Notes under the pieces: model-generated
Database searches by the model: none
What the model was told of the DNA's origin: nothing
Seen by the model: the letters and a program-made list of their open reading frames with translations, nothing else
In this document: piece by piece, positions 31,619-55,808 of the stretch
How the letters are laid out: the number at the start of each line of letters is the position of its first letter
Numbering within the stretch: the first letter of the stretch is position 1
Translations under genes and position numbers: made by a program
Source: Nannocystis bainbridge
GTDB taxonomy: Bacteria > Myxococcota_A > Polyangia > Nannocystales > Nannocystaceae
DNA length: 64,000 nucleotides
Assembly (NCBI RefSeq): GCF_028368995.1
Contig: NZ_JAQNDL010000004.1
Coordinates: forward strand, 128,001-192,000
Direction: 5' to 3'

Positions 31619-32006
31619 GACGAGAAGGTAGCGCCGTGGTCGAGTCAGGCCCGCGCAGAGCCGGGAGCGCGGCCAGGCTCAGGCGTGGCGGGTCGAGGCA
31701 GCGGCGGTCGGACGGCGGGTCCCCGGGGACATGACGGAGAGGGCAGGCAGGCTCGGCCGTGACCCGCGGCGGGGCGCGCGAGCAGGTGGCTCGGCGTGGG
31801 CAGGCGGGCTCGAGCGCGCGCCCGCGCCATGGGTCTGTGCGGCCCTGAAGCGCGCGTCGGCTTCGCGGCGGGCTCTTCCGCGTGACGGGCCTGCGCAGCC
31901 CTGAAGCGCGTGGCTTCGCAGCGAGACCCTCGAAGCGCTGCGCCACCGCGAAGGGCGGCGACCGGTGGGAGCGCTCCGACGGCGAGGTGGCTCGCCGTGC
32001 TGCCGT

Positions 32007-32070
32007 GTGTCCTCGAGGACATGTCTCCGGGAGCATGTCCTCGAACCCATGTCCCCGGGGACATGCCCCG
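32007..32070. repeat. GGACATGTC tandem array (about 5 units) between pcm and nadE
   Basis: tcgaggacatgtctccgggagcatgtcctcgaacccatgtccccggggacatgccccgggggcc. Confidence 0.85.
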
Positions 32071-32080
32071 GGGGCCAGGC

Positions 32081-34057
32081 TCACTTGCCGCCGACCGCGG
32101 CCTCGAGCTCGGCGAGCTCGTGGGAGAAGCCGCCCGAGAGGATCGGGAAGCGGCACCCCGTCTTCGGGTCGAGGTTCTGGTCGTCGAGGTGGAAGCTCGG
32201 GGCGTAGCGCTCGCGCTTCCACTGGTTCTGGCTCCACAGGCGGAAGAACCGCTTGACCCACAGGAGTAGCTGGGCGCGGCCGTGCTCGGGGTAGCGGCTG
32301 GCGAGGACGCGGAAGACGTCCTTGGGCGTGAGCTTGTCGCGGATGGCGGCGCGCTCGATGACGTCGAGGATCGGGTACGGCATCAGGTCGTCCTCGTCGG
32401 TCTGATGGGCGCTGGCGGGCCGCAGCTCGGCGGTCGGGGCCTGGACGTTGACGGCGCTCAGCTCGGGGGTAGGGCCGACGCCGGCGGGGCCTTCGAGCTC
32501 GACCCACCGCAGCCACTGGCGCAGGAAGGCCTTGTCGATGCCGGCGATCGGCGACAGGCCGCCGCAGGTGTCGCCGTCCATGGTGGCGTAGCCGACGGCG
32601 GCCTCGCTGCGGTTGCTGGTGGCCAGCAGGAGGGCGCCGCGCAGGTTGGCCAGCAGCCACACGCCGGGGGCGCGGGCGCGGGCCTGGATGTTCTGCAGGG
32701 CGATGTCGTCGCCCTTCCAGCCGAGCTCGCGGCCGATCGCGCCCTCGACCGTGCGCACGTAGGCGCGCACGAGCGGGTCGACGTCGAACTCGAGGAACTC
32801 GGCGCCGACGGCCCCGGCGACGGCGCGGGCGGCGTTGCGCGTGGTGTCGGAGCTGTTGTGCGTCGACTGATAGACGCAGGTGAGCAGCGAGCCCACGATC
32901 GCCCGCGTGGTGGTGCAGGTGCCCTCGGCCAGGCCGAGGCGGGCGCAGGTGGCCTCGACGCCGAGCTCCTGCACGGCGAGGGTGACCATGAGGTGCACGA
33001 GGTAGGCGACGGCGGCCGAGTCGGCGCCGCCGCTGAGCGAGACGACGAAGCCGCGCGACCGGCTCTTGCGCAGGTAGTCGAACAGGCCGAGAGCGACGGC
33101 CCGCGAGAACTCCTCGCGCTTGTCGCCGGGCCACGGCGGGGTCGGCAGCGGCTGGTGCGGCGGCAGGTCGGCGACCGGCAGCTGCATCTCGAAGCGGGTG
33201 ATCCGGCGCAGGTGGTCGTCGACGGTCGGGGCGGCGGTCCGGCTGGCGTGGATCATGCGCGCGAGGTCGACGTCGATCACGGCGCTGGTGAGGTAGACGT
33301 CGTCGTAACCGAGCCGCGGGCCCTCGGCGATGAGGTGGCCGGAGGCGGCGATCATGCACTCGCCGTCGTAGATGACGCGGCCGGCCTCGTTGCCGATGAA
33401 GTTGGAGTAGACGTAGGTGGCGCCGAAGCTGCGCGAGGCGCCGATGACGATCTGCTTGCGCACCTCGTGCTTGCCGAACGCGAAGTGGCTGGCGCTCGGG
33501 TTGCAGATGACGTCGACGCCCTGGGCGGCGAGCTCGACGCCGGGGCGGTTCGGGACCCACGCGTCCTCGCAGATCTCGAAGCCGATCCGCAGGCCGCCGA
33601 CCTCGAAGATCTGGTCGCCCAGCGGGTAGCTGTGGCCGTCGTGCTCCCACTGCACGAACTTGCCGGCCGGCCAGCCCTTGAACCACCGCGGCTCGTAATG
33701 GATGCCGTCACCGGCGAGGAAGCGCTTGCCGACCAGGCCGACGATCTGGCCGTCGGCGACCAGGCAGACGGCGTTGTAGTTGGCGGCGCGGTGCATGATC
33801 GGGACGCCGAGGGCGACGATCATGCCCTTCGTCTCGGGCAGCAGCTCTTGCAAGATCCGCCACGATTCGAGCACGGTGCCGCGGCTGAAGAACGCGTCCT
33901 CGCAGCCGTAGCCGGGGATGCAGAGCTCGGGCAGGCACAGCACGGCGACGCCCTGCTGGCGGGCCAGGCGGATCGCCTCGAGGATCCGGGCCTGGTTGCC
34001 GTCCCAGTCGAGCGGCGTCTGGTTGAGGGCGGCGGCGGCGACGCGGACGAGGTGCAT
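32081..34057 (-). CDS. nadE: glutamine-dependent NAD+ synthetase (nitrilase-like domain plus NadE domain)
   Basis: N-terminal CN-hydrolase domain (LCLPELCIPGYGCED, catalytic E/K/C) and C-terminal SGGADS P-loop (VSLSGGADSAAV). Confidence 0.9.
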   Translation of the reverse strand: MHLVRVAAAALNQTPLDWDGNQARILEAIRLARQQGVAVLCLPELCIPGYGCEDAFFSRGTVLESWRILQELLPETKGMIVALGVPIMHRAANYNAVCLVADGQIVGLVGKRFLAGDGIHYEPRWFKGWPAGKFVQWEHDGHSYPLGDQIFEVGGLRIGFEICEDAWVPNRPGVELAAQGVDVICNPSASHFAFGKHEVRKQIVIGASRSFGATYVYSNFIGNEAGRVIYDGECMIAASGHLIAEGPRLGYDDVYLTSAVIDVDLARMIHASRTAAPTVDDHLRRITRFEMQLPVADLPPHQPLPTPPWPGDKREEFSRAVALGLFDYLRKSRSRGFVVSLSGGADSAAVAYLVHLMVTLAVQELGVEATCARLGLAEGTCTTTRAIVGSLLTCVYQSTHNSSDTTRNAARAVAGAVGAEFLEFDVDPLVRAYVRTVEGAIGRELGWKGDDIALQNIQARARAPGVWLLANLRGALLLATSNRSEAAVGYATMDGDTCGGLSPIAGIDKAFLRQWLRWVELEGPAGVGPTPELSAVNVQAPTAELRPASAHQTDEDDLMPYPILDVIERAAIRDKLTPKDVFRVLASRYPEHGRAQLLLWVKRFFRLWSQNQWKRERYAPSFHLDDQNLDPKTGCRFPILSGGFSHELAELEAAVGGK

Positions 34058-34059
34058 TC

Positions 34060-34079
34060 AATGTCTCCGGGGACAGGGT

Positions 34080-34098
<19 letters not shown>
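34060..34098. repeat. GTCTCC/GGACATGTCC repeat pair between prs-like and nadE
   Basis: aatgtctccggggacagggtctaaaggacatgtcctgtg. Confidence 0.75.
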
Positions 34099-35023
<925 letters not shown>

Positions 35024-35027
<4 letters not shown>

Positions 35028-36892
35028 GCGGGGGAGGAAGAGTACCCCTCGGCGAGCGCGTTGGCGACCTCGGTATAGGCGTAATCGCTGACGCGTTCGT
35101 CGATGCGCATGCGCAGCAGCGCCTTGCTGCGGCAGGCGGCGGCGAAGAAGAACGCGCGATCGTCGGCGCAGGCGCGCGCGAGCGCGGGGACGGCGGCCCA
35201 GCGATCGAACAGGCGCTGGCAGATCCGCCGCACGCACGGCCACAGCTCGGCCTGGTCGGGCCCGCCGGCGTCTTCGATCCAGGCGATGACGGCGGCGAGG
35301 TGGGCGTGCACGAGGGTGTGGAGCAGCTTGCCCTGGGCCTCGGCGAGGTCGGCGGTGAGGGTGAAGGAGTCGGAGGCGAGCGCGGGTGCGTGACCGGCGG
35401 CGGCGAGCCGGCCGCGGTGGAGCCGGATGCCGCCGAGGTCGCGCACGATGAAGCCGCAGGGGCGGCCGGCGTGGACGAGCAGGGTGTTCTGCAGGTGGGC
35501 CTCGAGGGCGACGCCGTGGGCGGTCAAGAGGCGCAGGGCCGGCGGGACGAGGACTTCGAGGTAGTCGCTGAAGAAAGCGGCGAGGCGGGCGCGCAGGTCG
35601 CCGGGGTAGTCGGCGGCGAGCTCGCGCACGAGGAGGTCGCCGCCGGGGCGGCGCTCGCCGAGCGCGGCGCAGACGAGGAGCTGCGGGCTGCGCGAGGGGA
35701 CATGTCCGTGAGGGAAGGTCCTCGGGGACATGTCGTCGGGGGCATGTCCGGAGGGGAATGTCTCAAGGGACATGTCGGCGGGGCGGGACGGAGCGAGGCG
35801 CGGGTCGGCTGTCGCGAGGGACAGGTCGGCGTGGAGGTCGCGGGCGAGGGCGGCGGGGTCGGGGCGCAGCACGACGCCGAGCTGGCCGGCGCGGTCGCCG
35901 TGGCGCGGGTGCATGCCGGCGGCGGCCACGTCGGCCTGGATCCGCAGGCCGCGGCGCGTCTCGGGATCGGCGGCCTGGATCGCGGCCAGCAGGGCGGCGA
36001 TCGGCGGGCCGTTGTGGACCGAGGCGGGCGAGACCTGGCGGCGCGCGCTGGTGGTGTGGATGTCGACGGCGAGCTTGAGGTGCAGGGCCGGGGCGGCGAG
36101 GGCGACGGTGCGCAGGCTCAGGAGGGCGCGGGCGGGCAGCGGGGGCAGGTCGACGGGGTGGGCGACGCTGCGCCACAGCGGGCCGAGCAGGCGCGGCAGG
36201 CGGCGCAGCTGGAGGGCGTGCACGGGCAGGCGGACCAGGCCGGCGGGCGCGGGCGGGAACAGCTCGCGGGCGAGGTCGGCGTAGAGGTCGGGCGCGGCGA
36301 GCTGGGCGTGGTCGGCGGCGAGGTCGACGGCGTGCACGGGGGCCTGGGCCAGCAAGTCGGGGCCGTGGCGCAGGTTCTCCCAGGCGCGCAGGCCGAGCCG
36401 GGTCTTGCTCATCGGGTGCCAGGGGTGACCGTCGACGACGAGGTTCTCGGGGTCGAGCGGGGCGGGCCACGCCTGGCCTTCGGAGCATGTCCGATGGCGC
36501 AGGTCGGCGACGAGGCGGGCGAGGGCGAGGTTCCAGCGGCTGTCGTCGAGCTCGCGGGCGAGCCGGGCGCGGGGGGCCGGGGCGAGCGCGGGTAAGAGGC
36601 GCGGGAGGAGCTGGGGGAGGTCGGGCAGGTCGCTGGCTTCGAGGTCGGGGGCGTGGAGCTCAAAGGCGCGGCGGCGTCGCAGCGGGAGACTCAAGGAACA
36701 TGTGCGAAGGGACATGTCCTGAAGGTCAAAGGCGAGGAGCCGCTCGCGGGCGCAGGCGAGGAGCAGGCGGGCGCCGATGGCCTGGGTGGCGGCGCGCCAG
36801 TGACAGGCGAGGTCGGCGGGCTCGGGCCGGACGCGGAAGGCGAGGGGGAGGGCCCGGGCGGCGAAGGCGAAGAAGCGGTCGCGCTCGGGCAC
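35024..36892 (-). CDS. IucA/IucC-family (NRPS-independent siderophore synthetase-like) protein with FhuF-like C-terminal domain; carries in-frame GGACATGTCC repeat insertions
   Basis: [28 protein letters not shown] (S-x-R-T/R ATP loop) and [10 protein letters not shown] (H-x-Q-N) resemble NIS-synthetase motifs. The repeat arrays at 35696-35830 and 36692-36725 lie inside the reading frame (peptides [27 protein letters not shown] and DMSLRTCS). The true start is uncertain. Confidence 0.45.
35696..35830. repeat. GGACATGTC tandem array (about 7 units) lying in-frame inside the IucA/IucC-like CDS
   Basis: gggacatgtccgtgagggaaggtcctcggggacatgtcgtcgggggcatgtccggaggggaatgtctcaagggacatgtcggcgggg...gggacaggtcggc. 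Confidence 0.85.
36692..36725. repeat. GAACATGTG/GGACATGTCC repeat pair within the 5' region of the same ORF
   Basis: aggaacatgtgcgaagggacatgtcctgaaggtc. Confidence 0.7.
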
Positions 36893-37048
36893 GCCGCGAA
36901 AGGTAGCGCGCGGATCGGGAGGGCGAAAGCTCGGGGCTGTAGTGGCGATGAGCTCGCCGACCGTGGAGCTCGCTGAGGGAGCGGGCAGGGTCGACGAGGC
37001 CGACGAGCGTGCGGGCGCCGAAGGCCCCGGTCGGGGACGGCGAGAGGC

Positions 37049-37756
37049 TCAGCCGGCGCGCCAGTGGGCCACGGCGAGCTCGCCGAGCATGAGGGTGGCG
37101 GACAGGAGGAGGACGGCGGCGATCCAGCGGCGCAGGCTGTCGGGGTCGAGGCTGCCGGTGCGGCGGGCGCCGAGGTTGGCGCCGAGCAGGGTGAGCGGGG
37201 TGACGATGGCGAAGGCGGTGAGGTCGACCTGTCCTTGGAGGAAGGTGGCGACGCCGGCCGACAGCCCGGTGACGGCGCCGATCGCCATGTTGGTGCCGAT
37301 GGCCACGGGCGGGGCGACGCGGGCGTAGCGGATCATGGCGGGCAGGCGCAGGCTGCCGAGCAGGAGGCCGACGAGGCCGGAGATCGCGCCGAGCACGGCG
37401 CCGACGACGACCTCGGCGAGGACGGCGAAGGTGCGCGAAGGGACATGTCCGGAAGGACTGGTCGGATCGGGCGGGCGGCGCAGCATGCTGGCGCCGGTGA
37501 GCAGGAGGACGCCGGCGATGACGGCCTTGAGCAGGCGCGCGTCGACGCTGCCGGCCCAGCGAGCGGTGGCGAAGGCGGCGAGGGCGGAGGGGAGGCCGAC
37601 GCTGGCGAGCAGCCACAGGTCGACGCGGCCGTCACGGGCGTGCCGCCAGGTGCCGGTGAGGGTGCCGGCGGTGGAGATGGCGAGGCTGGTGGCGGCGCCG
37701 GCGACCGGGCTGCCGAGGACGTAGACGAGGAGGGCGACCCGCAGCTGGCCGAGCAC
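37049..37756 (-). CDS. TauE/SafE-family sulfite/anion exporter membrane protein; GTG start as tracked, but a hydrophobic helix is encoded in-frame upstream without a canonical start
   Basis: Two 3-4 TM halves separated by a loop that contains an in-frame GGACATGTCC repeat (RRPPDPTSPSGHVPSRTF). Upstream in-frame codons encode EILALALIALVSFGLSYIGATVGLV after a TAG at about 37846. Confidence 0.65.
   Translation of the reverse strand: MLGQLRVALLVYVLGSPVAGAATSLAISTAGTLTGTWRHARDGRVDLWLLASVGLPSALAAFATARWAGSVDARLLKAVIAGVLLLTGASMLRRPPDPTSPSGHVPSRTFAVLAEVVVGAVLGAISGLVGLLLGSLRLPAMIRYARVAPPVAIGTNMAIGAVTGLSAGVATFLQGQVDLTAFAIVTPLTLLGANLGARRTGSLDPDSLRRWIAAVLLLSATLMLGELAVAHWRAG
37436..37465. repeat. GGACATGTCC repeat unit pair in-frame inside the TauE central loop
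   Basis: gcgaagggacatgtccggaaggactggtcg. Confidence 0.8.
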
Positions 37757-38430
37757 GAGCCCGACGGTGGCGCCGATGTAGCTGAGGCCGAAGGAGACCA
37801 GCGCAATGAGCGCTAGCGCGAGGATCTCGGTGGAGCGCAGGCGCCGACGCTAACACGCGTGACGGGGGAGTGAGCCTGGAGGGATCGCCGCGCGGTGGCG
37901 CGAGGGCGCGCGGTCGCGGAGGACCACGAGAGAGGTGGTGCGGGGGCGATGCGTGAGGGGGCCGCTGCGAGGGCTCGGTGATGCTCTCGCGCGGTGCTGT
38001 CTCGCGGATGCGGCGGCGATCGCAGGGGACGAGTCGACGGCGATGGCCGGGCAGTTCGAGGCAAAGTGGGTGGCACACGCGGCGCGGCGATGTTGGCGAG
38101 GGCCTCGCTGTCGCGGTGTCGATGGCCGCGTCGCGGATGTGGCGGGGATGGTGCTGGTGGCGGTCCGGCGAGTCGTGGCGATGCTGCCCTGCGTGTCGGA
38201 TGGTTTGCGAGGCGCGAGCGATCGCTTCGTCGGGCCTCGGGCGTGCGGGCTGTCGGAGGGCCGCGAGGATCGGCGGTGTGAACGTGAAGGTTCGTTCATC
38301 ACGGTGCGCTGGGTCGGACGGTGATGGTCGGCTCGAGTCGGCGAAGGTGTCGCGGGCGAAGGTGTCGCGGGCGAAAGGCGGGGCGGCGCTTGACAGGCGG
38401 GCGGGCCGGGGCGGACGCTGCGGCGGCGTG

Positions 38431-39216
38431 ATGGAGCGCGGGGACACGACGGCGGCGGAGGCGCTCGCAACGGGGCTTCCGGGGTCGCCGCGGCCGCGCT
38501 GGGTGGTGATTCACTGGACGCTCGAGGCGCTGGGGCTGGTGCGCGCGATCGCGGCGGCCGACGGCTCGCCGGAGCTGACGCTGATCGGGCCGGCGGCCGC
38601 GGACGAGGTCGCGGGGGCGCTGGCCGAATTGCCCGAAGGACATGTCCACAAGTACTGGCAGGGCTCGGCGAGCGGCGGGGTCGAGGCGCTGGCGCGCTTC
38701 TTCGCCGAGACGGCCGGGCTGCCGGCGGCCGACGCGATCATCGTGCTGCCGCTGCGCGGGCACGGCGAGACCGACGCGTTCTCGCGCCTGGTGTGCACGG
38801 CGATCCAGCGGGCCTGCAAGGGCAAGCCGCCGCACGTGGTGGTGGCGGTCGAGGACCCGGAGGCGACCCACGAGTTCGAGGGGCTCGGGGTGGCGACGAT
38901 CTTCTATCCGGGCTTCCTGCGCGCGGCGCTGCTGGCCCACGCGTGCGTCGATCTGGGGGCGTTCCGCTTCATGCTGGCGCTGCTCGGCGGGCGCCTGCGG
39001 GTCGAGACCTGGCCGGTGCCGCCGGAGCTGCGGGCGGGGACGTTCCGCGAGGCGTGCCTCGGGGTGGAGGTCGATCGCCGCGGGCGGCCGGTGACGCTGA
39101 TCGGGCTGTTCGCGCCGGCCGAGGGCGGGCAGGACTCGATGCTGCTGAGCCCGCCGCCGGGCCGTGCGCTGCGCGACGCGAGCGCGCTGCTGGTGCTGAC
39201 GGGAGAGGCCGAGTGA
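38431..39216 (+). CDS. stand-alone RCK (TrkA-N/TrkA-C-like) regulatory protein
   Basis: Rossmann-like alternation (RWVVIHWTLEALGLVRAIAA...DAIIVLPLRG...HVVVAVEDPEA) followed by a small beta domain. Sits immediately upstream of the channel gene. Weak SD. Confidence 0.4.
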   Translation: MERGDTTAAEALATGLPGSPRPRWVVIHWTLEALGLVRAIAAADGSPELTLIGPAAADEVAGALAELPEGHVHKYWQGSASGGVEALARFFAETAGLPAADAIIVLPLRGHGETDAFSRLVCTAIQRACKGKPPHVVVAVEDPEATHEFEGLGVATIFYPGFLRAALLAHACVDLGAFRFMLALLGGRLRVETWPVPPELRAGTFREACLGVEVDRRGRPVTLIGLFAPAEGGQDSMLLSPPPGRALRDASALLVLTGEAE

Positions 39217-39330
39217 GGCGAGGGGCGCGTGCGGCCCGCGCGGGGGGCACGATCGGCAGCGCTGCCGGCGAGGCGGAGCGGGTCTTCGGCGAGGCGGCCG
39301 CTGTGACGCGGCTCGCAGGAGGATCTGGCT

Positions 39331-39400
39331 TTTGGGGCATGTCCGTGCGGACATGGCTGATCGGGCCTGTACTCCTGGGCATGTTCCTGCAGACAGGTGC
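39331..39400. repeat. GGGCATGTCC-type repeat units overlapping the start codon and signal peptide of the channel gene
   Basis: ggggcATGtccgtgcggacatggctgatcgggcctgtactcctgggcatgttcctgcagacaggtgcc. The ATG of the CDS is the CATG of a repeat core. Confidence 0.6.
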
Positions 39401-41663
39401 CGCGCGGGCCGGCGAGCCGATCACGATCCGGTTCGGGTCGGGGGCCAAGAAGGGCGGGTTCGACGTGACCGCCCACGCGCTGGCCGAGGTGGTGCGCGGC
39501 GAGGGGCGAGTGACGATCGCGCCGGAGTCGACGCGGGGCTCGTGCGAGAACGTGCACAAGCTGCTGTCGGGCGAGCTCGACGCGGCGCTGGTGCAGTACG
39601 ACGTGGCGGCCGAGGCGTTCAAGGCCGGGCAGGCCGACGCGGCGGCGGTCGACAGCAAGACGCCGCGCGGCGGGTGGATGTGCAAGCTGTCGCCCGAGGA
39701 GGCCGACAAGGCGGAGCTGCGGGTGATCGCGGCGGTGTCCGACGCGGCGGTGCACGTGCTGGTGCGCCGGCCGGTGCGCCTCGACGAGTTCACCGACATC
39801 GGCCGCGAGCCGCTGTTCATGGGCAAGGACGGGTCGGGCAGCTACGAGACGGCGAAGGTGATCCTCGGCGCGGCCGGGCACACGGCGGAGCATCTGCCGC
39901 TGTTCATGGGCACCGCCGACGAGGCGCTGGCGGCGATGAGCCGGCGCGAGCTGCTGACGATGCTGCGGACCACCGAGCCCGGGCACGCGGAGATCGGCGC
40001 GGTGCTGGCGTCGGGCCTGGCGACCCTGAACCCGCTGCCGGAGGAGGTGCTGAACCGGCTGATCGACGGCTATCCGTATTACCGGATCTGCCCGATCGAG
40101 CCCGGGACCTACGCGGGGCTCGAGTTCAGCATCCCGACGGTGTGCGTGAGCTCGGTGGTGCTGGTGGCGACGCCGCGCCAGCGGCTGGACGACGAGGGCT
40201 TTTTGGCCGACCGCCGGCTCGCGGTCGAGGCGATGATCGTCGGGCTGCAGAAGCTGGCGCGCGAGGAGCAGCACGCGAGCCTCGGGGTCCGCGTCGAGTG
40301 GCGCGGGTTCGCCGAGCGCGAGCCGATCCCGCTGCACCCGGTGGCGGAGGTGCACGAGACCCGCGAGCGGCGGACGGCGTGGCTGCAGGCAGGGGCGGCC
40401 GCGGCGGCGCTGGCGGTGGTGCTGCACCTGGTGCGCCGGGCGCTGCGGCGGCGGCGGGTCCCGGGGGCCGGGATCGAGACCCAGCTGTCGAACCCGCTGG
40501 TGCCGTTCGCGGCGTTCGCGTGCGTGGTGACGCTCTCGACGTTCATCGTCTGGTCTTTGGAACATGACTCGAACGCCAGGTTGCGGACGCTGAACGACTC
40601 GTTCTGGGAGATGAACACGTTCGCCACCGGCAACTTCACCACCGAGACGCTGAAGACGCCGACGGCGCGGGTGGTCGGGGCGGCGGCGACGATCCTCGGG
40701 CTGGGGCTGCTGGCGTGGTTCACGGCGACGCTCACCAACATCTTCGCGCAGGAGCAGACGCGGCTGTGGCGGCGGCTGAACCGGCACCTGGTGGTGCTGA
40801 ACTTCCGCGAGGACATGCTGCCGCTGATCCGGCTGCTGCGCAGCCCGGGGCCGACGCGCCACCGGCCGCTGCACGTGGTGGTGTCCGACGCGCTGCCGCG
40901 GCGCGTGCGGCTGCAGCTGGCGCGGGTCAAGGCGCTGACGATCCACAACGCCAACCCCGAGGTGCCGGAGGACCTGGCGGGGCTGCGGCTGCCGCGGGCG
41001 TCGCGGGTGATCGTGCTCGGCGACGGCGAGGCGGCGGGGGCCAGCTACGATCCGCTGCGGATCGCCCGCGCGGTCCATCAGGCGTGCGCGCGCGACCCGA
41101 TCGGCGGCGGGCAACGGGCGCGGCCGCTCGGGGTGGCGGCGACTTCGGTCGAGATCGCCCGGACCGCGCCGGCGCTGCCGGTGACGCTGGTCGAGACGTC
41201 GGAGGGCGAGCGCGACGAGGTGTTCTCGCCGTTCGCGGCCTGGCTGGTGCCGGTCGACTGCCAGACGCTGGCGCACCGCTGGCTGGTGATGGCCTGCCGC
41301 GACCGCGCGTTCGCGGAGCTGTTCAACCGGGTGGTCGCGTTCGCCGACGACAACGCCGAGGTCTACACGGCGACGGCTCCGACCTGGCTCATCGGACAGC
41401 CGTGGCGATCGGTCCGCCGCGCGCTGCTCGAGGTCCAGGGGCGCGGGGGCGCGGTGCCCCTGGGGCTGTATCGCACCGCCGATCCGGGCGGCAAGACGCC
41501 GGTGGGCGGGACCTCGCACGCGGAGCTGCGGCGGCGGCTGATCGTCAATCCGCGGCCGGACGAGCCGGTGGCGCCGGGCGACCTGATCGTCGCGCTGTGC
41601 GAGGATGAGGCGGACCTGGTGCGCATCGTCGCCGAGAGCCGCAAGGCCGTGCCGATCGGCTGA
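39339..41663 (+). CDS. TAXI-type solute-binding domain fused to a 2-TM ion-channel pore and tandem RCK domains
   Basis: Signal MSVRTWLIGPVLLGMFLQTGAARA. TAXI-like blocks (ITIRFGSGAKKGGFDVTAHALAEVV...SCENVHKLLSGELDAALVQYDVAAEA...FMGKDGSGSYETAKVILGAAG), then TM1, pore helix plus filter FWEMNTFATGNFTTE, then TM2, then two RCK-like domains (HLVVLNFRED..., RVIVLGDGEAAG...). Confidence 0.6.
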   Translation: MSVRTWLIGPVLLGMFLQTGAARAGEPITIRFGSGAKKGGFDVTAHALAEVVRGEGRVTIAPESTRGSCENVHKLLSGELDAALVQYDVAAEAFKAGQADAAAVDSKTPRGGWMCKLSPEEADKAELRVIAAVSDAAVHVLVRRPVRLDEFTDIGREPLFMGKDGSGSYETAKVILGAAGHTAEHLPLFMGTADEALAAMSRRELLTMLRTTEPGHAEIGAVLASGLATLNPLPEEVLNRLIDGYPYYRICPIEPGTYAGLEFSIPTVCVSSVVLVATPRQRLDDEGFLADRRLAVEAMIVGLQKLAREEQHASLGVRVEWRGFAEREPIPLHPVAEVHETRERRTAWLQAGAAAAALAVVLHLVRRALRRRRVPGAGIETQLSNPLVPFAAFACVVTLSTFIVWSLEHDSNARLRTLNDSFWEMNTFATGNFTTETLKTPTARVVGAAATILGLGLLAWFTATLTNIFAQEQTRLWRRLNRHLVVLNFREDMLPLIRLLRSPGPTRHRPLHVVVSDALPRRVRLQLARVKALTIHNANPEVPEDLAGLRLPRASRVIVLGDGEAAGASYDPLRIARAVHQACARDPIGGGQRARPLGVAATSVEIARTAPALPVTLVETSEGERDEVFSPFAAWLVPVDCQTLAHRWLVMACRDRAFAELFNRVVAFADDNAEVYTATAPTWLIGQPWRSVRRALLEVQGRGGAVPLGLYRTADPGGKTPVGGTSHAELRRRLIVNPRPDEPVAPGDLIVALCEDEADLVRIVAESRKAVPIG

Positions 41664-41775
41664 CGCGGCCGCGCGCAGCGAGGACGCGGCCGCGCCCGCG
41701 AGGGGCTCGATTGTGGCTTCAAAGCCACGGCCGGCCCGGTTGACGGCGAGGGGCGGTGAATCGTATTCGGGCGAG

Positions 41776-42927
41776 ATGCGGTCCCGTCGTGTCGTCCTCG
41801 CGTTGTCTTCCGCGCTCGTCGCCGGCTGTTATGCGGGTGGAGCGCAGATGACCGAAAGTACAGGTGAGACCGGGACCGCGAGCGAGGCGACGACGGGCGG
41901 TCCGGGCGAGACGACGGTCGAGCCCGCGACCGGGGACACGGGCGCGCCGACGACGGCGGCGACGACGACGACGACCGGGGTGGGGCCGACGAGCACGGAG
42001 CCGGCGGGGCCGACCAGCACCGGGCCGGACGCGACGACCGCGGAGCCGGAGACGACGCTGGGGCCGGAGACGACCGACGCGACCACGAGCGAGACCACGA
42101 CCGGGGCGCCGATCGACCCGGTGGCGGAGGTGTGCGCGCGCTGGACGGCGGACCGTTCGGACATGTCCGAAGGGACATGGAGCGGGGCGGTCGCGGGCTG
42201 TCAGGCGGGCGACACCGGGGCGCCGGGCCGCGACAACGCGCTGCGGCTGATCAACCTCTATCGCTGGCTGGCCGGGCAGCCGGCGGTCGGGCACGACGCG
42301 GGCCTCAACGCCAAGGCGCAGCAGTGCGCGCTGATGATGCAGGCCAACGGGCAGCTGTCGCACAGCCCGGGCATGGGCTGGGACTGTTACACGGCCGACG
42401 GGGCGCAGGCGGCGATGAACAGCAACATCTCGTCGACGCCGGGGGTGGTCGCGGTCGACCTCTACATGGTCGACCCCGGCAACGCGACGACGTTCGGCCA
42501 CCGGCGCTGGATCCTCTCGAACAAGCTCGGTCCGGTCGGGCTCGGCTCGTCGGCGGTCAACTCGTGTATGTGGGTGATCGGCGGGCAGGGCGGCGGCGAT
42601 GCGGCGTGGACGGCCTGGCCGCCGCCCGGGGTGGTGCCGATCGAGGCGCTCCACGTGCCCGAGGTGCCGTGGGCCAACGTCGACGAGACGGGCTGGACGA
42701 TCCAGAGCGACAGCCTCGACCTCGGCGGGGCGCAGGTCTCGATCACCGAGAGCGGGATCGAGATGCCGGTCAAGCTGACGCCCCTGATGGGCGGGTTCGG
42801 CTCGGCCAGCGCGATCGCCATGACGCCGCAGGGGTGGGAGTCGGAGGCGGGCAAGACGTACGCGGTGCAGGTGAGCGGGGTGCCGCAGCCGTTCAGCTAC
42901 GAGGTGCAGGTGGTCGGCTGCGAGTGA
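41776..42927 (+). CDS. CAP/SCP/PR-1-domain lipoprotein with Thr/Pro-rich linker
   Basis: Lipobox LVAGC, about 100 aa of T/G/P/E repeats, then a CAP domain (GHRRWILSNKLGPVGLG, NSCMW). An in-frame GGACATGTCC pair sits at 42151-42180 (RSDMSEGTWSG). Confidence 0.7.
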   Translation: MRSRRVVLALSSALVAGCYAGGAQMTESTGETGTASEATTGGPGETTVEPATGDTGAPTTAATTTTTGVGPTSTEPAGPTSTGPDATTAEPETTLGPETTDATTSETTTGAPIDPVAEVCARWTADRSDMSEGTWSGAVAGCQAGDTGAPGRDNALRLINLYRWLAGQPAVGHDAGLNAKAQQCALMMQANGQLSHSPGMGWDCYTADGAQAAMNSNISSTPGVVAVDLYMVDPGNATTFGHRRWILSNKLGPVGLGSSAVNSCMWVIGGQGGGDAAWTAWPPPGVVPIEALHVPEVPWANVDETGWTIQSDSLDLGGAQVSITESGIEMPVKLTPLMGGFGSASAIAMTPQGWESEAGKTYAVQVSGVPQPFSYEVQVVGCE

Positions 42928-42979
42928 GGGGTGGTCACGCGCCGGCGTGGACGCGGCGCGTCGCCGCGCGGAGGTATCT

Positions 42980-43033
42980 CGGGACATGCTCTCCAGGACA
43001 TGCTCGGACGGGCATGTCCTATTGAGCATGTGC
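42980..43033. repeat. GGACATGCTC/GGCATGTCC tandem array between convergent genes
   Basis: gggacatgctctccaggacatgctcggacgggcatgtcctattgagcatgtgcg. Confidence 0.8.
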
Positions 43034-43035
43034 GA

Positions 43036-43497
43036 TCAGCCAGCCGAGGTCGCGCGGCTGAGGCGGACCTCGACGGCGTGGTCTTCGCGGCCGGAGGGGA
43101 AGATGTTGGTCGCCTCGATCACCAGCAGGTCGCCGTCGCGGCGGAAGGTGGTGCGCCAGCCCCAGGTCTCCGGGCCGGCGCGGTAGCTGCCGCGGACCGC
43201 GATGTCGGGGCCGGCGGGCCCGGTCGACCACAGCGCGGAGGCGCCGGTGTGGAAGCTGTCGATCCAGTACATGGTGTGCTCGTGGTCATCGAGGCCGAGG
43301 GTCATCTCGCCGTGGTGCGGCTTGCCCATGCAGGTGCCGTCGTAGCGGAGGCGCGTGTAGCGGCCGTCCAGCAGCGGCTCGATCTCGACGCGCCAGGTGC
43401 TCTCGTCGGGCGCGCCCGAGGGGTCGAGCCAGGTGCGTGCGGGGCCGGTCCATGAGCCTGTGAGTTCGCTGAGGGGGTGCGCCATGGCGGGTGTCAT
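43036..43497 (-). CDS. hypothetical protein (DUF1579-like lipocalin-type fold)
   Basis: 153-aa ORF with a beta-rich pattern; no signal peptide. Confidence 0.45.
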   Translation of the reverse strand: MTPAMAHPLSELTGSWTGPARTWLDPSGAPDESTWRVEIEPLLDGRYTRLRYDGTCMGKPHHGEMTLGLDDHEHTMYWIDSFHTGASALWSTGPAGPDIAVRGSYRAGPETWGWRTTFRRDGDLLVIEATNIFPSGREDHAVEVRLSRATSAG

Positions 43498-43556
43498 AGG
43501 TCATCGGCGGCGAGCGGTCCACCGGTGACGGGCGCGGCGGGTGCTACAGTGCGGCG

Positions 43557-44684
43557 ATGCGAGCGGTCCGCGGGGCGGTCTTGGTGGGGCTCGGGCTCGC
43601 GGCGTGTTCGGCGGCGACGAACGCGGGTGGCGGCAGCGAGGCCACGACGTCGAGTGGTTCGGGCGAGAGCGGCGGGCCGGGCAGCACGGGCAGCACGGGC
43701 GGCACGAGCGGCGGGACGACGGCCGCGCCGACGACGACGACGGCGATGCCTGCGCCGGATCTCGGGGTGATGAACGACTGTCGCCACGACAGCCCCGAGG
43801 CGTTGATGGATTGCATCGATCCGGGGCGGTGGGCGGAGGAGGTCGCCTTCATCGCCGCGTCGCGGCCGCCCGGGTCGCCGCACTGGCACAAGGTGCAGGA
43901 CCGTTGCGCGGCGCGGCTCGAGCAGGCGGGCTTCGTGGTGCAGCGGCAGGACTACGGCTCCGGGGTCAACGTGATCGGCACGCGCGAGGGGGTGACCGAT
44001 CCGGGCGAGGTGGTGTTGCTGGCGGCCCACTACGATCACATCAGCGGGTGCCCCGGCGCCGACGACAACGCGAGCGGGGTGGCGGGGGCGCTCGAGGTGG
44101 CGCGCGTGCTCGGGCAGGCGTCGCTGCCGCGCACGCTGGTGGTGGCGTGCTGGGACGAGGAGGAGCTCGGGCTGCGGGGCTCGCGGGCGTTCGCGCAGAC
44201 GTTCACGGGGGCGAAGCTGGCGGTGGCGTTCAACTTCGACATGATCGGCTACGCGAGCGCGGCGGAGCAATCGCAGGTGTTCCCGGGGCCGCTGGCGGAG
44301 CGCTTCCCCGGGCTGGCGGACGAGCTGGCGGCCAACAAGGGGCGCGGCGACTTCATCGCGGTGGTGGCCGACGCGTCGGCCGAGCCGTTCGCGCTCGAGC
44401 TCGAGGCGCAGGCGGAGGCGCTGGGCCGGCTGACGGGGGTGATGACGCTGACGGCGGTCGAGAAGCTCGACGACGACGCGTTCGGGGTGCTGAGCATGTC
44501 GGACCACCGCAGCTTCTGGGAGCTCGGTCTGCCGGCGCTGCACGTGTTCGACACCGGGCTGTTCCGCAACCCGACGTATCACTGCACGCTCGGGCTCGAC
44601 ACGGCCGACACGCTCGATCACGCGTTCGCCACCGATGTGCTCAAGGCGACGGCGGCGGCGGTGGCGGCCGCGGCGGGGCTGTAG
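43557..44684 (+). CDS. M28-family aminopeptidase lipoprotein
   Basis: Lipobox GLAAC, Gly/Ser/Thr linker, then AAHYDHISGCPGADDNASGVAGALEVAR, CWDEEELGLRGS and NFDMIG zinc-ligand blocks. Confidence 0.8.
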   Translation: MRAVRGAVLVGLGLAACSAATNAGGGSEATTSSGSGESGGPGSTGSTGGTSGGTTAAPTTTTAMPAPDLGVMNDCRHDSPEALMDCIDPGRWAEEVAFIAASRPPGSPHWHKVQDRCAARLEQAGFVVQRQDYGSGVNVIGTREGVTDPGEVVLLAAHYDHISGCPGADDNASGVAGALEVARVLGQASLPRTLVVACWDEEELGLRGSRAFAQTFTGAKLAVAFNFDMIGYASAAEQSQVFPGPLAERFPGLADELAANKGRGDFIAVVADASAEPFALELEAQAEALGRLTGVMTLTAVEKLDDDAFGVLSMSDHRSFWELGLPALHVFDTGLFRNPTYHCTLGLDTADTLDHAFATDVLKATAAAVAAAAGL

Positions 44685-44696
44685 CGGCGGTTTTCA

Positions 44697-44727
44697 GGAG
44701 GATATGTCCCGAGGGACATGTGCCGCG
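44697..44727. repeat. GATATGTCCcgaGGGACATGTG repeat pair between convergent genes
   Basis: ggaggatatgtcccgagggacatgtgccgcg. Confidence 0.75.
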
Positions 44728-44729
44728 CG

Positions 44730-45695
44730 TCAGCTCCACTGCAGGTCGAGCACGAAGCGCCGCCACTCGCGCTCGAAGCGGGGCATGTCGCGGTGGCCGA
44801 GGATCTTCTGCAGGGTGGTGTAGCCGCCGGGATCGAGGTCGGCGCCGGCGACGAAGGCGTGATAATAATCGCGCAGGCGATCCTGCTCCTGCAAATAATA
44901 GCAGAGGTAGCGCGCCTGGGCGTAGTTGAGGCCGGAGCGGGCGCCGTAGAATTCGTCGGAGTCGGTGGCGCACAGCTCGGCGAACGAGCGCAGGCGCCGG
45001 GCGCGGATGGCGGCCTGCAGGCCCGGGAGGCGCCAATTGGGGTAGCCGACGATCCGGCCGGCGTGCTCGCCACATTGCTCGTAGAGCGAGGCCAGGCCCT
45101 CATTGAACCACGCCGGACAGGCGGGGAAGTTGCTGGCCATGAACGGGTGGACGATCTCGTGGACGAGGGTGCCGCCGCCGGTGCCGATGTTCATGATCAG
45201 GGCGGCGTGGCGCGGCGAGTAATAGCCGTAGGGCGTGTCGGGCTCCTCGCCGAAGATCTCCTGGGTGTTGCGGCCGTAGCTCAGGCGATCGGCGAACAAA
45301 TAGACGTCGATGATGCGCGCGGGATCGCGGGCGAAGTAGTCCTGCCGCAGCCGCAGCACCGACCAGTGGATCGTGCGATCGGCCCGGCGCTGGACGTCGG
45401 CGGCCGGCTCGTCGCCGAGGATGACGAACGGCGGCTCGACGAGGACGGTGAAGCCGCGATCGGCGTGGCGCTGGCGCAGCGCGTCGGCGCGGGCGTCGAG
45501 GGCGGCGCGGGGGATGCGAGCGGCGGCGAGCTCGGAAGCTGCGACCGGCGGGGGTGGCGGTCCGGGCGAGGGCAGGTCGGGCTCGGGCTCGAGCGAGAGG
45601 CGCGGGGCAGGACGGGGCGGCGCGGAGGCGGGGCGATCGCCGCAGGCCCACATTCCGGCGGCGGCGAGCCCGAGGGCGAATTCTCGGCGGTGCAT
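44730..45695 (-). CDS. putative zinc metalloprotease (HExxH) lipoprotein
   Basis: Signal MHRREFALGLAAAGMWACG; HEIVHPF HExxH motif with a downstream NEGLASLYE (candidate third ligand region). The 660-aa track ORF is longer than the real gene. Confidence 0.55.
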   Translation of the reverse strand: MHRREFALGLAAAGMWACGDRPASAPPRPAPRLSLEPEPDLPSPGPPPPPVAASELAAARIPRAALDARADALRQRHADRGFTVLVEPPFVILGDEPAADVQRRADRTIHWSVLRLRQDYFARDPARIIDVYLFADRLSYGRNTQEIFGEEPDTPYGYYSPRHAALIMNIGTGGGTLVHEIVHPFMASNFPACPAWFNEGLASLYEQCGEHAGRIVGYPNWRLPGLQAAIRARRLRSFAELCATDSDEFYGARSGLNYAQARYLCYYLQEQDRLRDYYHAFVAGADLDPGGYTTLQKILGHRDMPRFEREWRRFVLDLQWS

Positions 45696-45821
45696 GCAGC
45701 GGTGGAGACGCGCGTGGGCCGGGGACGGGTCTGGCGTGCGTGCTGGCTCGCGGCGGGAGCGTAGAGCCTGGTGTGGGTGCCGGCTTGCGGCGCGGGGGCG
45801 GGTAGTCCATGGTCGCCGCCC

Positions 45822-46667
45822 ATGGCCCGCAAGCCGCTTCGCCGCCTCGTGGTCGACGGTCGACTGTACCTGTACTCGATGGGGTGGACCTACGACCTCG
45901 ACGGCGAGCGCGTGGTCGCGGTGGCGCTCTATCACGCGGAGACCGGGCAGGAGAACCGTCCGCGCGGTCAGCCGATGCGGGCCAAGTTCCTCACGCGCGA
46001 GGCGGCGGTGGTCGACACCTCGATCGCGTTTCCGGCCGACGCCCGCGCCGTGCTCGAGCGGGCGCTGACCCTCGGCTGGGACGGTCGGCGCGAGGGCTGG
46101 CTGCTGCCGGCGAGCGGGCTGGAGCGGCCGGGGCTGGTGCTCAGCGGGCCGACGCGGCTGCGCGAGTGGGCGGCGGGAAAGCCGGCCTATGTGCTCCACT
46201 TCGAGGACACGACGCTGGCGGAGCGCATCGCGGGCGACCTCGGGATCCCGGCGGTGCCCGCCGCGCGCGGGGCCGCCGAGGCGCAGTGGCGCGACGAGAC
46301 GCGCTATGTGCTGCGCTCGCGGTGGGGCCGACTGGTGCACGTGTACACGCGCAGCGTCGCCGAGCTGGTGGCGGCGCTGGCCGCCGTGGCGCGCCGGGCC
46401 CCGCGGCTCGGCGGGTCGGTGGCGGGGCTGGCGAGCGTCACGCCCGAGGCGGCCGGCGAGGTCGTTCCGCCCGAACACTGGGCGACGCAGCCGGAGGCGC
46501 GCCAGTTCCCGGGGGTTCGTGAGCGGGACGTGGTGTGGACATACGCCGGACCCGACGGCCCGCGCGTCGAGGCCTACGAGTACCACCCGGACGCGCCGGA
46601 GCATCTGTGGCGCTGGACCAGCCTGCACGAGGGCGGATCGGTCGAGCGCCGGTTCCCGCGCGCGTGA
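45822..46667 (+). CDS. hypothetical protein
   Basis: 281-aa ORF from ATG 45822 (MARKPLRRLVVDGRLYLYSMGWTYDLDGERVVAVALYHAET...), convergent with the methyltransferase-family gene. Confidence 0.4.
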   Translation: MARKPLRRLVVDGRLYLYSMGWTYDLDGERVVAVALYHAETGQENRPRGQPMRAKFLTREAAVVDTSIAFPADARAVLERALTLGWDGRREGWLLPASGLERPGLVLSGPTRLREWAAGKPAYVLHFEDTTLAERIAGDLGIPAVPAARGAAEAQWRDETRYVLRSRWGRLVHVYTRSVAELVAALAAVARRAPRLGGSVAGLASVTPEAAGEVVPPEHWATQPEARQFPGVRERDVVWTYAGPDGPRVEAYEYHPDAPEHLWRWTSLHEGGSVERRFPRA

Positions 46668-46677
46668 ACCGGGCCGG

Positions 46678-55751: not shown

Positions 55752-55808
55752 AGGGACATGTCCCCCGGGACCTGCCCTCAAGGGCATGGCTCCGGGGACA
55801 TGTCCGAT
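55752..55808. repeat. GGGACATGTCCCCCGGGAC / GGGGACATGTCC array overlapping the 3' end of the methyltransferase CDS
   Basis: agggacatgtcccccgggacctgccctcaagggcatggctccggggacatgtccgat. Confidence 0.85.

What the first reader, a model, noticed from the sequence alone, without database searches (positions are those of the whole stretch)
35696..42180. Copies of the GGACATGTCC repeat sit in-frame inside otherwise intact genes
The array at 35696-35830 lies inside the IucA/IucC-like ORF without breaking frame, adding the peptide ...[27 protein letters not shown]...; a second pair sits near its 5' end at 36692. A two-unit copy at 37436-37465 encodes RRPPDPTSPSGHVPSRTF in the central cytoplasmic loop of the TauE/SafE transporter, a position that tolerates insertions. 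A pair at 42151-42180 encodes RSDMSEGTWSG between the linker and the CAP domain of the lipoprotein. The last 9 codons of the DNA methyltransferase (55778-55804) are repeat-derived. Every insertion preserves frame even though the unit length is 14 bp. That implies selection for frame, or insertion as units of fixed non-14 length. Many spurious six-frame ORFs start with the recurring T-C-P-x-G-H-V / D-M-S peptide, which is the repeat read in one frame.
Basis: partly seen in the sequence, partly recalled or inferred. Interest (0 to 1): 0.7.

Follow-up and report, generated by a model that had tools for sequence, protein, structure and literature searches.

The report
Genus-specific palindromic repeat embedded in genes
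A short palindromic DNA repeat that litters Nannocystis genomes, mostly just after stop codons, also sits in frame inside several intact genes, but only one of those copies is a true insertion, so this is a new example of a known kind of selfish or structural repeat and not a new mechanism.

Summary
The window comes from Nannocystis bainbridge bb15-2. The 10-bp palindrome GGACATGTCC occurs 14 times (0.07 expected). It forms arrays with a strict 14-bp period. These fold into strong hairpins, and 13 of 22 arrays start 11-30 bp after a stop codon. In ~20-kb loci the family is present in six Nannocystis species and absent from other Nannocystaceae.

Only the IucA/IucC array is a real insertion. 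It is about 50 aa longer than 12 distant orthologues, and the closest outgroup lacks a clean 26-28 aa block, which equals six units or 84 bp. The TauE copy, the IucC 5' pair and a further solo copy add no length. The CAP-protein "pair" is an ancestral family-wide peptide (DMSEGTW) that outgroups encode with different codons. The methyltransferase tail is repeat-derived, as are the last four codons of a PRPP-synthetase-like gene and the start codon of a TAXI-family gene.

Frame is kept by purifying selection, not by a fixed insert length. The cores are conserved at the nucleotide level beyond what the proteins need. The closest known parallels are REP/BIME, Rickettsia palindromic elements and cyanobacterial HIP1. 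Interest is moderate.

The parts
35696..35830 (-). In-frame repeat array in the linker between the IucA_IucC and FhuF domains. Six clear 14-bp units (84 bp, two 14-aa peptide repeats DMSxxTFPxGH[AV]Px) plus degenerate units upstream.
   Evidence: TRF finds period 14 and period 42. The block is absent from 12 outgroup orthologues and is a clean 26-28 aa gap in L006. It is present at variable length in six Nannocystis species. Core nucleotides have pairwise identity 0.77 against 0.42 for spacers, p=1.4e-5.
35024..36892 (-). Host gene: an NIS-siderophore-synthetase-like protein (IucA_IucC + FhuF domains, 622-aa ORF). It is intact.
   Evidence: Pfam hits, orthologues and PDB relatives AsbB/AcsD. 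The query has about 53 more residues than AsbB between shared anchors.
36692..36723 (-). Two-unit copy (2-mismatch unit 36696-36705, exact unit 36710-36719) encoding DMSLRTCS near the IucC N-terminus. It adds no net length.
   Evidence: Conserved in 6 of 6 Nannocystis species, including the rare codons CTT, ACA, TGT and TTG. Outgroups have an equal or longer unrelated stretch here.
37436..37465 (-). One exact unit (37441-37450) plus a weak partner, encoding SGHVPS in the central loop of the TauE/SafE protein (gene 37049-37801).
   Evidence: Alignment A1 shows relatives without the motif have loops only 1-3 aa shorter. The CAT codon is kept in 6 of 6 species.
38638..38647 (+). Solo exact unit inside a conserved hypothetical gene (about 38428-39216), encoding EGHVH.
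   Evidence: GGA CAT GTC is kept in 6 of 6 species while the flanking amino acids vary. Homologues have the same length and a different sequence at this point.
39335..39390 (+). Three-unit array that overlaps the 5' end of the TAXI-family TRAP solute-binding gene. The annotated start ATG (39339) is the CATG core of a unit.
   Evidence: Cross-species conservation begins at this ATG. The exact 774-aa product is annotated in NCBI as WP_272091296.1. Orthologues annotated at 760 aa start at the ATG of the third unit.
42151..42180 (+). Motif-like pair GGACATGTCC-GAAG-GGACATGG encoding DMSEGTW in the CAP-domain lipoprotein (gene about 41776-42927). This is ancestral coding sequence, not an insertion.
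   Evidence: The peptide is conserved across the homologue set. Enhygromyxa and three metagenomic homologues encode it with other codons. Nannocystis keeps the rare codons GAA, GGG and ACA in 6 of 6 species. The predicted mRNA hairpin is -18.5 kcal/mol, z -4.5.
55754..55805 (.). Array between convergent genes. Its right-hand part supplies the last 8 codons and the stop of the DNA methyltransferase (55778-57052, minus strand).
   Evidence: Homology to the ~595-aa homologues ends at GGGGFRYF. The tail ..DMS[PS]E[PA]CP* is shared with N. punicea and N. radixulma.
34080..34098 (-). Exact unit 34085-34094 supplies the last four codons (GHVL) before the stop codon (34080-34082) of a PRPP-synthetase-like gene (34080-35021). 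Two degenerate units fill the 24-bp gap to the next gene.
   Evidence: Conserved in 6 of 6 Nannocystis species. Outgroups L006 and L011 end differently (..PAAP*..GYAG*).
42982..43019 (.). Typical intergenic array of the family, between the convergent CAP gene and gene 43036-43497. Shown for comparison.
   Evidence: An array is present at the same position in all six species with variable unit number. Hairpin -23.8 kcal/mol, z -4.4. It lies 17 bp from the nearest stop codon.

Best explanation
The GGACATGTCC units belong to a REP-like repeat family that appears specific to the genus Nannocystis.

Anatomy. The unit is a 10-bp palindrome, GG[A/g]CATG[T/c]CC, followed by a variable 4-nt spacer. Units form arrays with a strict 14-bp period. 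Neighbouring units pair into long hairpins.

Usual location. Arrays normally sit 11-30 bp downstream of stop codons. This is either where such an element does its job (a transcript 3'-end or terminator-like structure, or a protein-binding site; this step is inferred) or where it is tolerated.

Copies that overlap coding sequence arise in three ways:
1. Genuine insertion. A six-unit, 84-bp array entered the inter-domain linker of the IucA/IucC protein before the six sampled species diverged. It survives because 3n units of 14 bp are frame-neutral and the core has no stop codon in any frame. Later indels were filtered by selection to multiples of 3.
2. Capture of gene ends. Arrays next to genes supply stop-proximal codons (methyltransferase, PRPP-synthetase-like gene) or a start codon (TAXI-family gene).
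3. Copies embedded without length change. Solo or double units sit in variable loops (TauE, hypothetical gene, IucC N-terminus). In the CAP protein, a pre-existing peptide is encoded in Nannocystis with rare codons that spell the motif.

In all classes the motif core is maintained at the nucleotide level, beyond what the protein needs. The peptide is a passenger and the nucleic-acid motif is what is conserved.
For: Repeat anatomy and distribution
- The motif is enriched 14 against 0.07 expected, with a strict 14/28/42/56-bp spacing and a clear unit logo.
- Intergenic arrays fold with z-scores of -4.4 to -9.1, and the stems extend into the spacers.
- 13 of 22 arrays or solo exact units start 11-30 bp after a stop codon.
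- The family is present in loci from all five Nannocystis reference genomes (4.6-7.8 hits per 10 kb). Twelve outgroup loci have 0-1.4 hits per 10 kb and no exact copy.
- Arrays sit at orthologous intergenic positions in all six species.

IucC array
- Absent from outgroups, variable in length but always in frame.
- The query has about 53 residues more than AsbB between shared anchors.

Gene ends
-.

Sites with no length change
-.

Nucleotide-level maintenance
- A/T-ending codons make up 23/69 in repeat segments against 101/3119 elsewhere (p=1.3e-16).
- These codons are retained in all six species at 11/15 sites against 10/66 elsewhere (p=2.2e-5).
- Within the IucC array, conservation follows the 14-nt register: core 0.77 against spacer 0.42 (p=1.4e-5).
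- In most species, every third unit has drifted from the T-C-P reading to T-F-P or T-Y-P. This explains the 42-bp superperiod seen only in the coding array, whereas several intergenic arrays show 28 bp.
Against: - The comparative sample is small: one 64-kb window, five 22-kb loci and about 560 kb of unassigned metagenomic contigs. 'Genus-specific' and 'mostly after stop codons' are extrapolations.
- No transcript, methylation or binding data exist, so the function is inferred.
- Arrays lack a T-run. The terminator scan finds no more sites than in shuffles (3 against 3.0), and only one of the three lies in an array.
- A solo 10-bp palindrome cannot form a hairpin, so an RNA-hairpin role cannot explain why solo copies in coding sequence are conserved.
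- No transposase of the RAYT type could be searched for, so the means of spread is unknown.
- The repeat segments in the codon tests were chosen because the window matches the motif. Cross-species retention is not forced by that choice, but the numbers are small (15 codons).
- In variable loops, an old insertion followed by a compensating deletion cannot be told apart from origin in place.
Confidence: 0.7

Rival explanations
1. One reading: every intragenic copy is an inserted repeat. Frame is preserved either because inserts come in a fixed length that is not 14 bp, or because only in-frame insertions survive.
For: The IucC array is a true insertion whose clean block equals six units, or 28 codons. 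The methyltransferase tail is not homologous to the rest of its family. The window and N. punicea differ by exactly 42 bp between the IucC anchors.
Against: The CAP peptide is ancestral and is encoded by other codons elsewhere. TauE, the IucC 5' pair and the hypothetical gene show no meaningful length gain. The other length differences between species are 9, 21, 30 and 72 bp, not multiples of 14 or 42. Several intergenic arrays show a 28-bp superperiod and none shows 42 bp.
Confidence: 0.12
2. The solo and double copies inside genes are chance by-products of the peptides they encode (D-M-S, G-H-V or T-C-P written in a 72% G+C genome) and have nothing to do with the repeat family.
For: x-D-M-S written with preferred codons gives xxG GAC ATG TCC, so the exact 10-mer in the CAP gene follows largely from an ancestral peptide.
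Against: Shuffles predict 0.07 exact 10-mers in the whole window. Five lie inside coding sequence away from gene ends, and two more form the last codons of genes. The sites use rare A/T-ending codons (CAT, GGA, ACA, GAA, CTT, TGT) that are kept in all six species far more often than other A/T-ending codons (p=2.2e-5). Partners sit at exactly 14 bp. In the hypothetical gene the motif is conserved while the flanking amino acids vary.
Confidence: 0.08
3. The motif works at the DNA level, like the cyanobacterial HIP1 palindrome. It would be a binding site for a dimeric protein, or a site tied to an orphan methyltransferase (the conserved core RCATGY is palindromic). In that case the hairpins and the position after stop codons are secondary.
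For: The unit is a perfect 10-bp palindrome. Solo units that cannot fold alone are conserved in coding sequence. The CATG core is the most conserved part, flanked by R at 85% and Y at 94%. HIP1 is likewise conserved within and between ORFs (PMC5861425) and has been linked to orphan methyltransferases (PMC4390886, abstract).
Against: Most copies form tandem arrays whose spacers are also complementary, giving 13-15-bp stems. That suggests selection for pairing. The tight placement 11-30 bp after stop codons is more typical of transcript-end elements. No binding protein or methylation data are available.
Confidence: 0.3
4. The host genes are decaying pseudogenes, and the repeats mark dead coding sequence.
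For: The methyltransferase is shorter than most of its homologues at both ends.
Against: All host ORFs are uninterrupted and have full Pfam domains. They are conserved at 69-94% amino-acid identity across six species, with GC3 of 0.92-0.97. The 424-aa methyltransferase form is itself conserved at 85-89% identity.
Confidence: 0.02

Closest known systems
REP/BIME elements (repetitive extragenic palindromes) of enterobacteria and pseudomonads
   Same: Both are short, high-copy palindromic units that form hairpins. Both lie mostly between genes and close to gene 3' ends, and often occur in clusters. Both are lineage-specific.
   Different: The unit here is a perfect 10-bp palindrome repeated head-to-tail at a strict 14-bp period. 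It is not a ~35-bp imperfect palindrome in alternating orientation. No RAYT transposase link could be tested. Copies occur inside coding sequence and are conserved there.
Rickettsia palindromic elements (RPEs) and other MITEs that make in-frame fusions (review PMC10969869)
   Same: A palindromic repeat is inserted in frame into unrelated housekeeping genes. It adds a peptide segment while the host protein stays intact. The IucC array fits this description.
   Different: RPEs are single elements of ~100-150 bp that encode one conserved peptide. Here the element is a variable tandem array of 14-bp units read in three phases (DMS / TCP / GHV). Only one of six internal sites is a demonstrable insertion. 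No terminal inverted repeats or target-site duplications were seen.
HIP1 (GCGATCGC), the highly iterated palindrome of cyanobacteria (PMC5861425)
   Same: Both are short perfect palindromes, over-represented a hundred-fold or more. Both are found within and between ORFs, and individual sites are conserved between species beyond what the protein needs.
   Different: HIP1 is mostly solo and mostly intragenic. The Nannocystis motif is mostly in tandem arrays after stop codons and only occasionally intragenic.
Mycobacterial interspersed repetitive units (MIRUs); comparison from general knowledge, not tested here
   Same: Both are tandem repeats in short intergenic gaps whose ends overlap the stop and start codons of the flanking genes. 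Compare 34080-34098 and 39335-39390.
   Different: MIRU units are 40-100 bp, are not palindromic, and are themselves small ORFs.

Membership tests
REP/BIME-type extragenic palindromic repeats | Short palindromic unit able to form a stable stem-loop | tested here: met
   Seven intergenic arrays were folded. Six fold at -23.8 to -59.1 kcal/mol with z -4.4 to -9.1, and none of 200 shuffles does as well. The seventh, a two-unit array, folds at -13.6 kcal/mol, z -2.1.
REP/BIME-type extragenic palindromic repeats | High copy number, predominantly extragenic and close to gene 3' ends | tested here: met
   14 exact copies against 0.07 expected. 13 of 22 arrays start 11-30 bp after a stop codon. Five internal coding-sequence sites are the exceptions.
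REP/BIME-type extragenic palindromic repeats | Association with a REP-associated tyrosine transposase (RAYT) flanked by the repeats | not tested
No RAYT search was possible.
RPE-like in-frame palindromic insertions | The repeat-encoded segment is absent from orthologues in genomes that lack the repeat | tested here: inconclusive
   Met for the IucC array and for the methyltransferase tail. Not met for CAP, TauE, the IucC 5' pair or the hypothetical gene.
RPE-like in-frame palindromic insertions | The host ORF stays intact and conserved | tested here: met
   Pfam domains lie on both sides of the array. The ORF is single in six species.
RPE-like in-frame palindromic insertions | A discrete element of ~100-150 bp that encodes one conserved peptide | tested here: not met
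   The insert is a tandem array of 14-bp units whose number varies. Between fixed anchors the segment is 48-81 aa in six species.
HIP1-like hyper-abundant palindrome | Short perfect palindrome over-represented at least 15-fold | tested here: met
   About 200-fold: 14 against 0.07.
HIP1-like hyper-abundant palindrome | Sites conserved between species within ORFs beyond codon expectation | tested here: met
   A/T-ending codons are retained at 11/15 sites against 10/66, p=2.2e-5. Core against spacer identity is 0.77 against 0.42. The sample is small.
HIP1-like hyper-abundant palindrome | Mostly solo copies spread through coding sequence | tested here: not met
   Most copies are in tandem arrays in intergenic DNA.
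Canonical intrinsic (Rho-independent) terminator | G+C-rich hairpin followed by a run of T | tested here: not met
   The scan of 30000-49999 found 3 sites against 3.0 expected. Only one of them (47288-47301) lies in an array.

The most novel reading that the evidence does not exclude
The palindrome is not only tolerated in genes. It is actively maintained in coding DNA, and perhaps written into it, by selection for a DNA-level function (nucleoid or protein binding, or RCATGY methylation) or by biased conversion from the many genomic copies. Under this reading, ancestral peptides such as DMSEGTW were recoded with rare codons to carry the motif. This would be a HIP1-like genome-wide 'second code' in a myxobacterium. 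It would have the added feature that the same motif builds hairpin arrays after stop codons and supplies start and stop codons.
Probability: 0.22. Interest if true: 0.7.

Novelty: new member of a known kind. Interest (0 to 1): 0.42.

Why it matters
The four literature searches aimed at this repeat or at myxobacterial repeats found no description of this family. It matters for three reasons:
- It affects annotation of 11-13-Mb Nannocystis genomes. Many spurious ORFs and ambiguous start codons arise from the CATG core, for example the 774-aa against 760-aa TAXI gene models.
- It gives a clean, datable example of a tandem palindromic array fixed inside an enzyme linker.
- Its nucleotide-level conservation inside genes makes the open question behind HIP1 and REP elements (DNA function, RNA function or selfish spread) testable in a culturable myxobacterium.

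Tried and rejected
- Rfam found no family anywhere in the window.
- The canonical terminator scan gave no enrichment.
- The pseudogene idea was rejected.
- My first GC3-based gene list merged two genes at 38394-41663 in the wrong frame. This was corrected with cross-species conservation and an exact look-up.
- I first misread the tail of the PRPP-synthetase-like gene as ..DMSF*. The correct frame gives ..GHVL*.
- One run of the codon test had that gene out of frame. It was redone correctly.
- Arrays at 17341-17443, 20214-20237 and 62358 looked intragenic in mechanical ORFs. They lie in non-coding 5' parts with GC3 of 0.63-0.73.
- A crude ORF-context classification of about 735 kb (window, reference loci and metagenomic contigs) called 67 of 241 sites intragenic. 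It picks wrong strands in places, and these loci were selected for containing a perfect doublet, so I do not rely on it.
- The viral-contig scan for the perfect doublet gave one contig (L023), which I did not pursue.
- Structure prediction of IucC was not run. Orthologues taken from loci cannot be submitted, and a single-sequence model would not be informative.
- The literature searches found only p53 papers for the motif string and nothing on Nannocystis repeats.

Full report
**Source and repeat family**

The window is 72% G+C. Its TauE and CAP-domain sequences are 100% identical to proteins of Nannocystis sp. bb15-2, and its TAXI product is exactly an NCBI protein of Nannocystis bainbridge, all three recorded on a 755,881-bp contig. 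GGACATGTCC occurs 14 times exactly, against 0.07 expected from dinucleotide shuffles. There are 41 copies with at most one mismatch.

Units seeded only on CATG pairs 14 bp apart give the logo GG[A/g]CATG[T/c]CC followed by four variable bases. CATG-to-CATG distances peak at 14 (35 cases), 28 (26), 42 (21) and 56 (7). Six of the seven intergenic arrays folded give long hairpins, -24 to -59 kcal/mol with z -4.4 to -9.1, in which the spacers also pair. The seventh is weaker, at -13.6 kcal/mol and z -2.1.

Of 22 arrays or solo exact units in the window, 13 begin 11-30 bp after a stop codon. The arrays have no T-run and do not score as canonical terminators. Rfam recognises nothing.

The family is present at 4.6-7.8 near-exact hits per 10 kb in the ~22-kb loci fetched from N. 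punicea, N. exedens, N. pusilla, N. sp. RBIL2 and N. radixulma. It is essentially absent from 13 loci of Enhygromyxa, Plesiocystis and other Nannocystaceae. Intergenic arrays sit at the same orthologous positions in all six species, with varying unit numbers. A scan for the perfect doublet in metagenomes returned 91 contigs, nearly all with 66-77% G+C. I found no paper that describes the family.

**Site-by-site test of the finding**

*1. IucA/IucC array, 35696-35830: a true insertion.*
- The ORF has IucA_IucC (residues 149-350) and FhuF (439-600) domains on either side of the array.
- Twelve non-Nannocystis orthologues have about 10 residues where the window has about 62.
- Against AsbB, the query has about 53 extra residues between shared anchors.
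- The closest outgroup is a 61%-identical MAG, L006. It lacks a clean block of 26-28 residues that corresponds to the six clear units, 84 bp.
- All six Nannocystis species carry the array.
- Between the anchors VxRPD and VCAALG the segment is 72, 58, 51, 81, 78 and 48 aa long. All are in frame, but the differences (42, 21, 9, 30, 72 bp) are not unit multiples.
- This site is a real, old, in-frame insertion.

*2. IucC 5' pair, 36696-36719 (DMSLRTCS): no net insertion.*
- It is conserved in all six species, down to the rare codons CTT, ACA, TGT and TTG.
- Outgroups have an equally long or longer unrelated stretch at this position.

*3. TauE, 37441-37450: not a clean insertion.*
- There is one exact unit plus a partner with three mismatches.
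- In a 31-sequence alignment, relatives without the motif have loops only 1-3 residues shorter, for example PAPAADDAPVPRR against PPDPTSPSGHVPSR.

*4. CAP protein, 42159: ancestral coding sequence.*
- C.RW..DR.D[ML]SEG[TS]WSG is conserved across the 120 listed homologues, down to 57% identity.
- Enhygromyxa encodes DLSEGNW as GAC CTC TCG GAG GGC AAC TGG.
- Three non-Nannocystis homologues encode the identical DMSEGTW as GAC ATG AGC GAG/GAA GGG/GGC ACC/ACG TGG. Their contigs contain no motif.
- All six Nannocystis species, however, write the peptide as GAC ATG TCC/TCT GAA GGG ACA TGG. They use rare codons that create a second unit and a -18.5 kcal/mol hairpin.

*5. Methyltransferase, 55778-57052: the tail is repeat-derived.*
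- Most homologues are about 570-620 aa. The Nannocystis form is 424 aa.
- Homology stops at GGGGFRYF, and the tail ..DMSPEPCP* lies in the array. N. punicea and N. radixulma share this tail.

**Further overlaps found in and beside the interval**
- A solo exact unit at 38638 lies inside a conserved hypothetical gene and encodes EGHVH. GGA CAT GTC is kept in six of six species while the flanking residues vary. Homologues have the same length and a different sequence there.
- The annotated start codon of the TAXI-family gene (ATG at 39339) is the CATG core of a unit. Alternative 760-aa gene models start at the ATG of the third unit.
- The last four codons (GHVL) of a PRPP-synthetase-like gene are a unit at 34085-34094, with the stop codon (34080-34082) directly after it. 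Outgroups end differently.

**Frame preservation**

The core has no stop codon in any of its three frames, which are the same on both strands because the unit is a palindrome. The three frames read DMS, TCP and GHV. Three units span 42 bp, or 14 codons, so a 3n-unit array is frame-neutral. The clean block is six units. Several intergenic arrays show a 28-bp superperiod, which reflects hairpin doublets. Only the coding array shows a 42-bp superperiod.

The 42-bp period has a simple cause. In most species the units read as T-C-P have drifted to T-F-P or T-Y-P. This looks like selection at the amino-acid level acting on every third unit.

Together with the length differences, which are multiples of 3 but not of 14, this points to purifying selection on frame. 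A fixed insert length is not needed. This is the expected survivorship effect.

**Nucleotide-level maintenance**

I made codon alignments of 11 genes across the six species.
- A/T-ending codons are 23/69 in the repeat segments against 101/3119 elsewhere (p=1.3e-16).
- At sites where the amino acid is invariant, A/T-ending codons are retained in all six species at 11/15 positions in the repeats against 10/66 elsewhere (p=2.2e-5).
- All four alignable His codons that lie in cores are CAT in six of six species.
- In a 57-nt gap-free block of the IucC array, core positions have pairwise identity 0.77 and spacers 0.42 (p=1.4e-5). Conservation follows the 14-nt register and not the codon phase.

The motif, not the peptide, is what is conserved. 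The sample is small, and the segments were picked from the window sequence.

**Mechanism**

Shown:
- the anatomy and genus distribution of the repeat, within the loci sampled;
- its placement after stop codons and its hairpin potential;
- one true insertion, three gene-end captures and four embedded copies without length change;
- nucleotide-level conservation of the cores.

Inferred:
- the arrays act as transcript-end structures or as protein-binding sites;
- the means by which they spread.

Solo units cannot fold on their own, so their conservation favours recognition at the DNA level, as has been argued for HIP1 (PMC5861425). The complementary spacers and the position after stop codons favour an RNA or termination role. 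I cannot decide between the two with these tools.

**Comparison with known systems and verdict**

The family resembles REP/BIME elements in location and hairpins. The IucC case resembles Rickettsia palindromic elements and other in-frame MITE fusions (PMC10969869). The conserved palindromes inside ORFs resemble HIP1. The family fails defining features of each: it is not a discrete 100-150-bp element, it is not mostly solo and intragenic, and a RAYT link is untested. I file it as a new member of the broad class of short interspersed palindromic repeats.

Its interpretation that every copy is an in-frame insertion holds for one internal site and one gene tail, and it is refuted for the CAP site.

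Noticed in passing
window 55778-57052 (minus strand): The DNA methyltransferase (N6_N4_Mtase) is 424 aa. Most homologues are 570-620 aa. The Nannocystis form lacks about 18 N-terminal and about 170 C-terminal residues, yet it is conserved at 85-89% identity in N. punicea and N. radixulma.
   Followed up: partly
window 35696-42180: All five verified internal coding-sequence copies in the 64-kb window fall within this 6.5-kb stretch. None was verified in the remaining ~57 kb. I have no explanation for the clustering.
   Followed up: no
L006 660-700: The closest outgroup lacks the IucC repeat block but has GGTCTCTCCGGACAGGACC at the junction. This resembles the GGACAGGTC-type units of other window repeats and could be a seed for the array.
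   Followed up: no
window 18080-18181 and 26029-26096: There are related but distinct tandem repeats. One has period 27 (GGCTGTCTCTGCGGACAGGTCTCGCGC, 3.8 copies). The other has period 14 and a GGACAGGTG core, that is CAGG in place of CATG.
   Followed up: no
window 28496-28654 and 29964-30129: Tandem repeats of 64 bp and of 50-54 bp appear to be reverse complements of each other. They flank about 1.3 kb, with a second inverted 16-bp pair at 28787-28818 and 29780-29812. This could be a mobile element or a large inverted-repeat structure.
   Followed up: no
window 39339 against 39381: Public annotations of the TAXI-family gene disagree, at 774 aa against 760 aa. Both candidate start codons are CATG cores of repeat units.
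   Followed up: partly
window 41776-42927: The public model of the CAP protein (359 aa) starts after the likely lipoprotein signal peptide (MRSRRVVLALSSALVAGC). A start at 41776, giving 383 aa, looks more plausible.
   Followed up: no
L001 and L003, between the TauE and IucC orthologues: N. punicea and N. pusilla carry an insertion between TauE and IucC, about 2.4 kb in N. pusilla, where the other species have a 77-220-bp gap. In N. pusilla Na p29 several genes in this region appear split: the PRPP-synthetase-like gene gives two separate alignments and its first ORF ends early, and the TAXI and CAP genes align only in part or in pieces. These may be assembly errors or pseudogenes.
   Followed up: no
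L068 11721-11871: A metagenomic contig has a 36-bp-period coding tandem repeat (GVxVPRDMSKGTG, five copies). Each copy contains a unit with one mismatch.
   Followed up: no
L023 8925-8948: One contig in the viral collection (59 kb in all; the 9.1 kb fetched is 66% G+C) carries a perfect doublet. It may be a Nannocystis-type phage or prophage.
   Followed up: no
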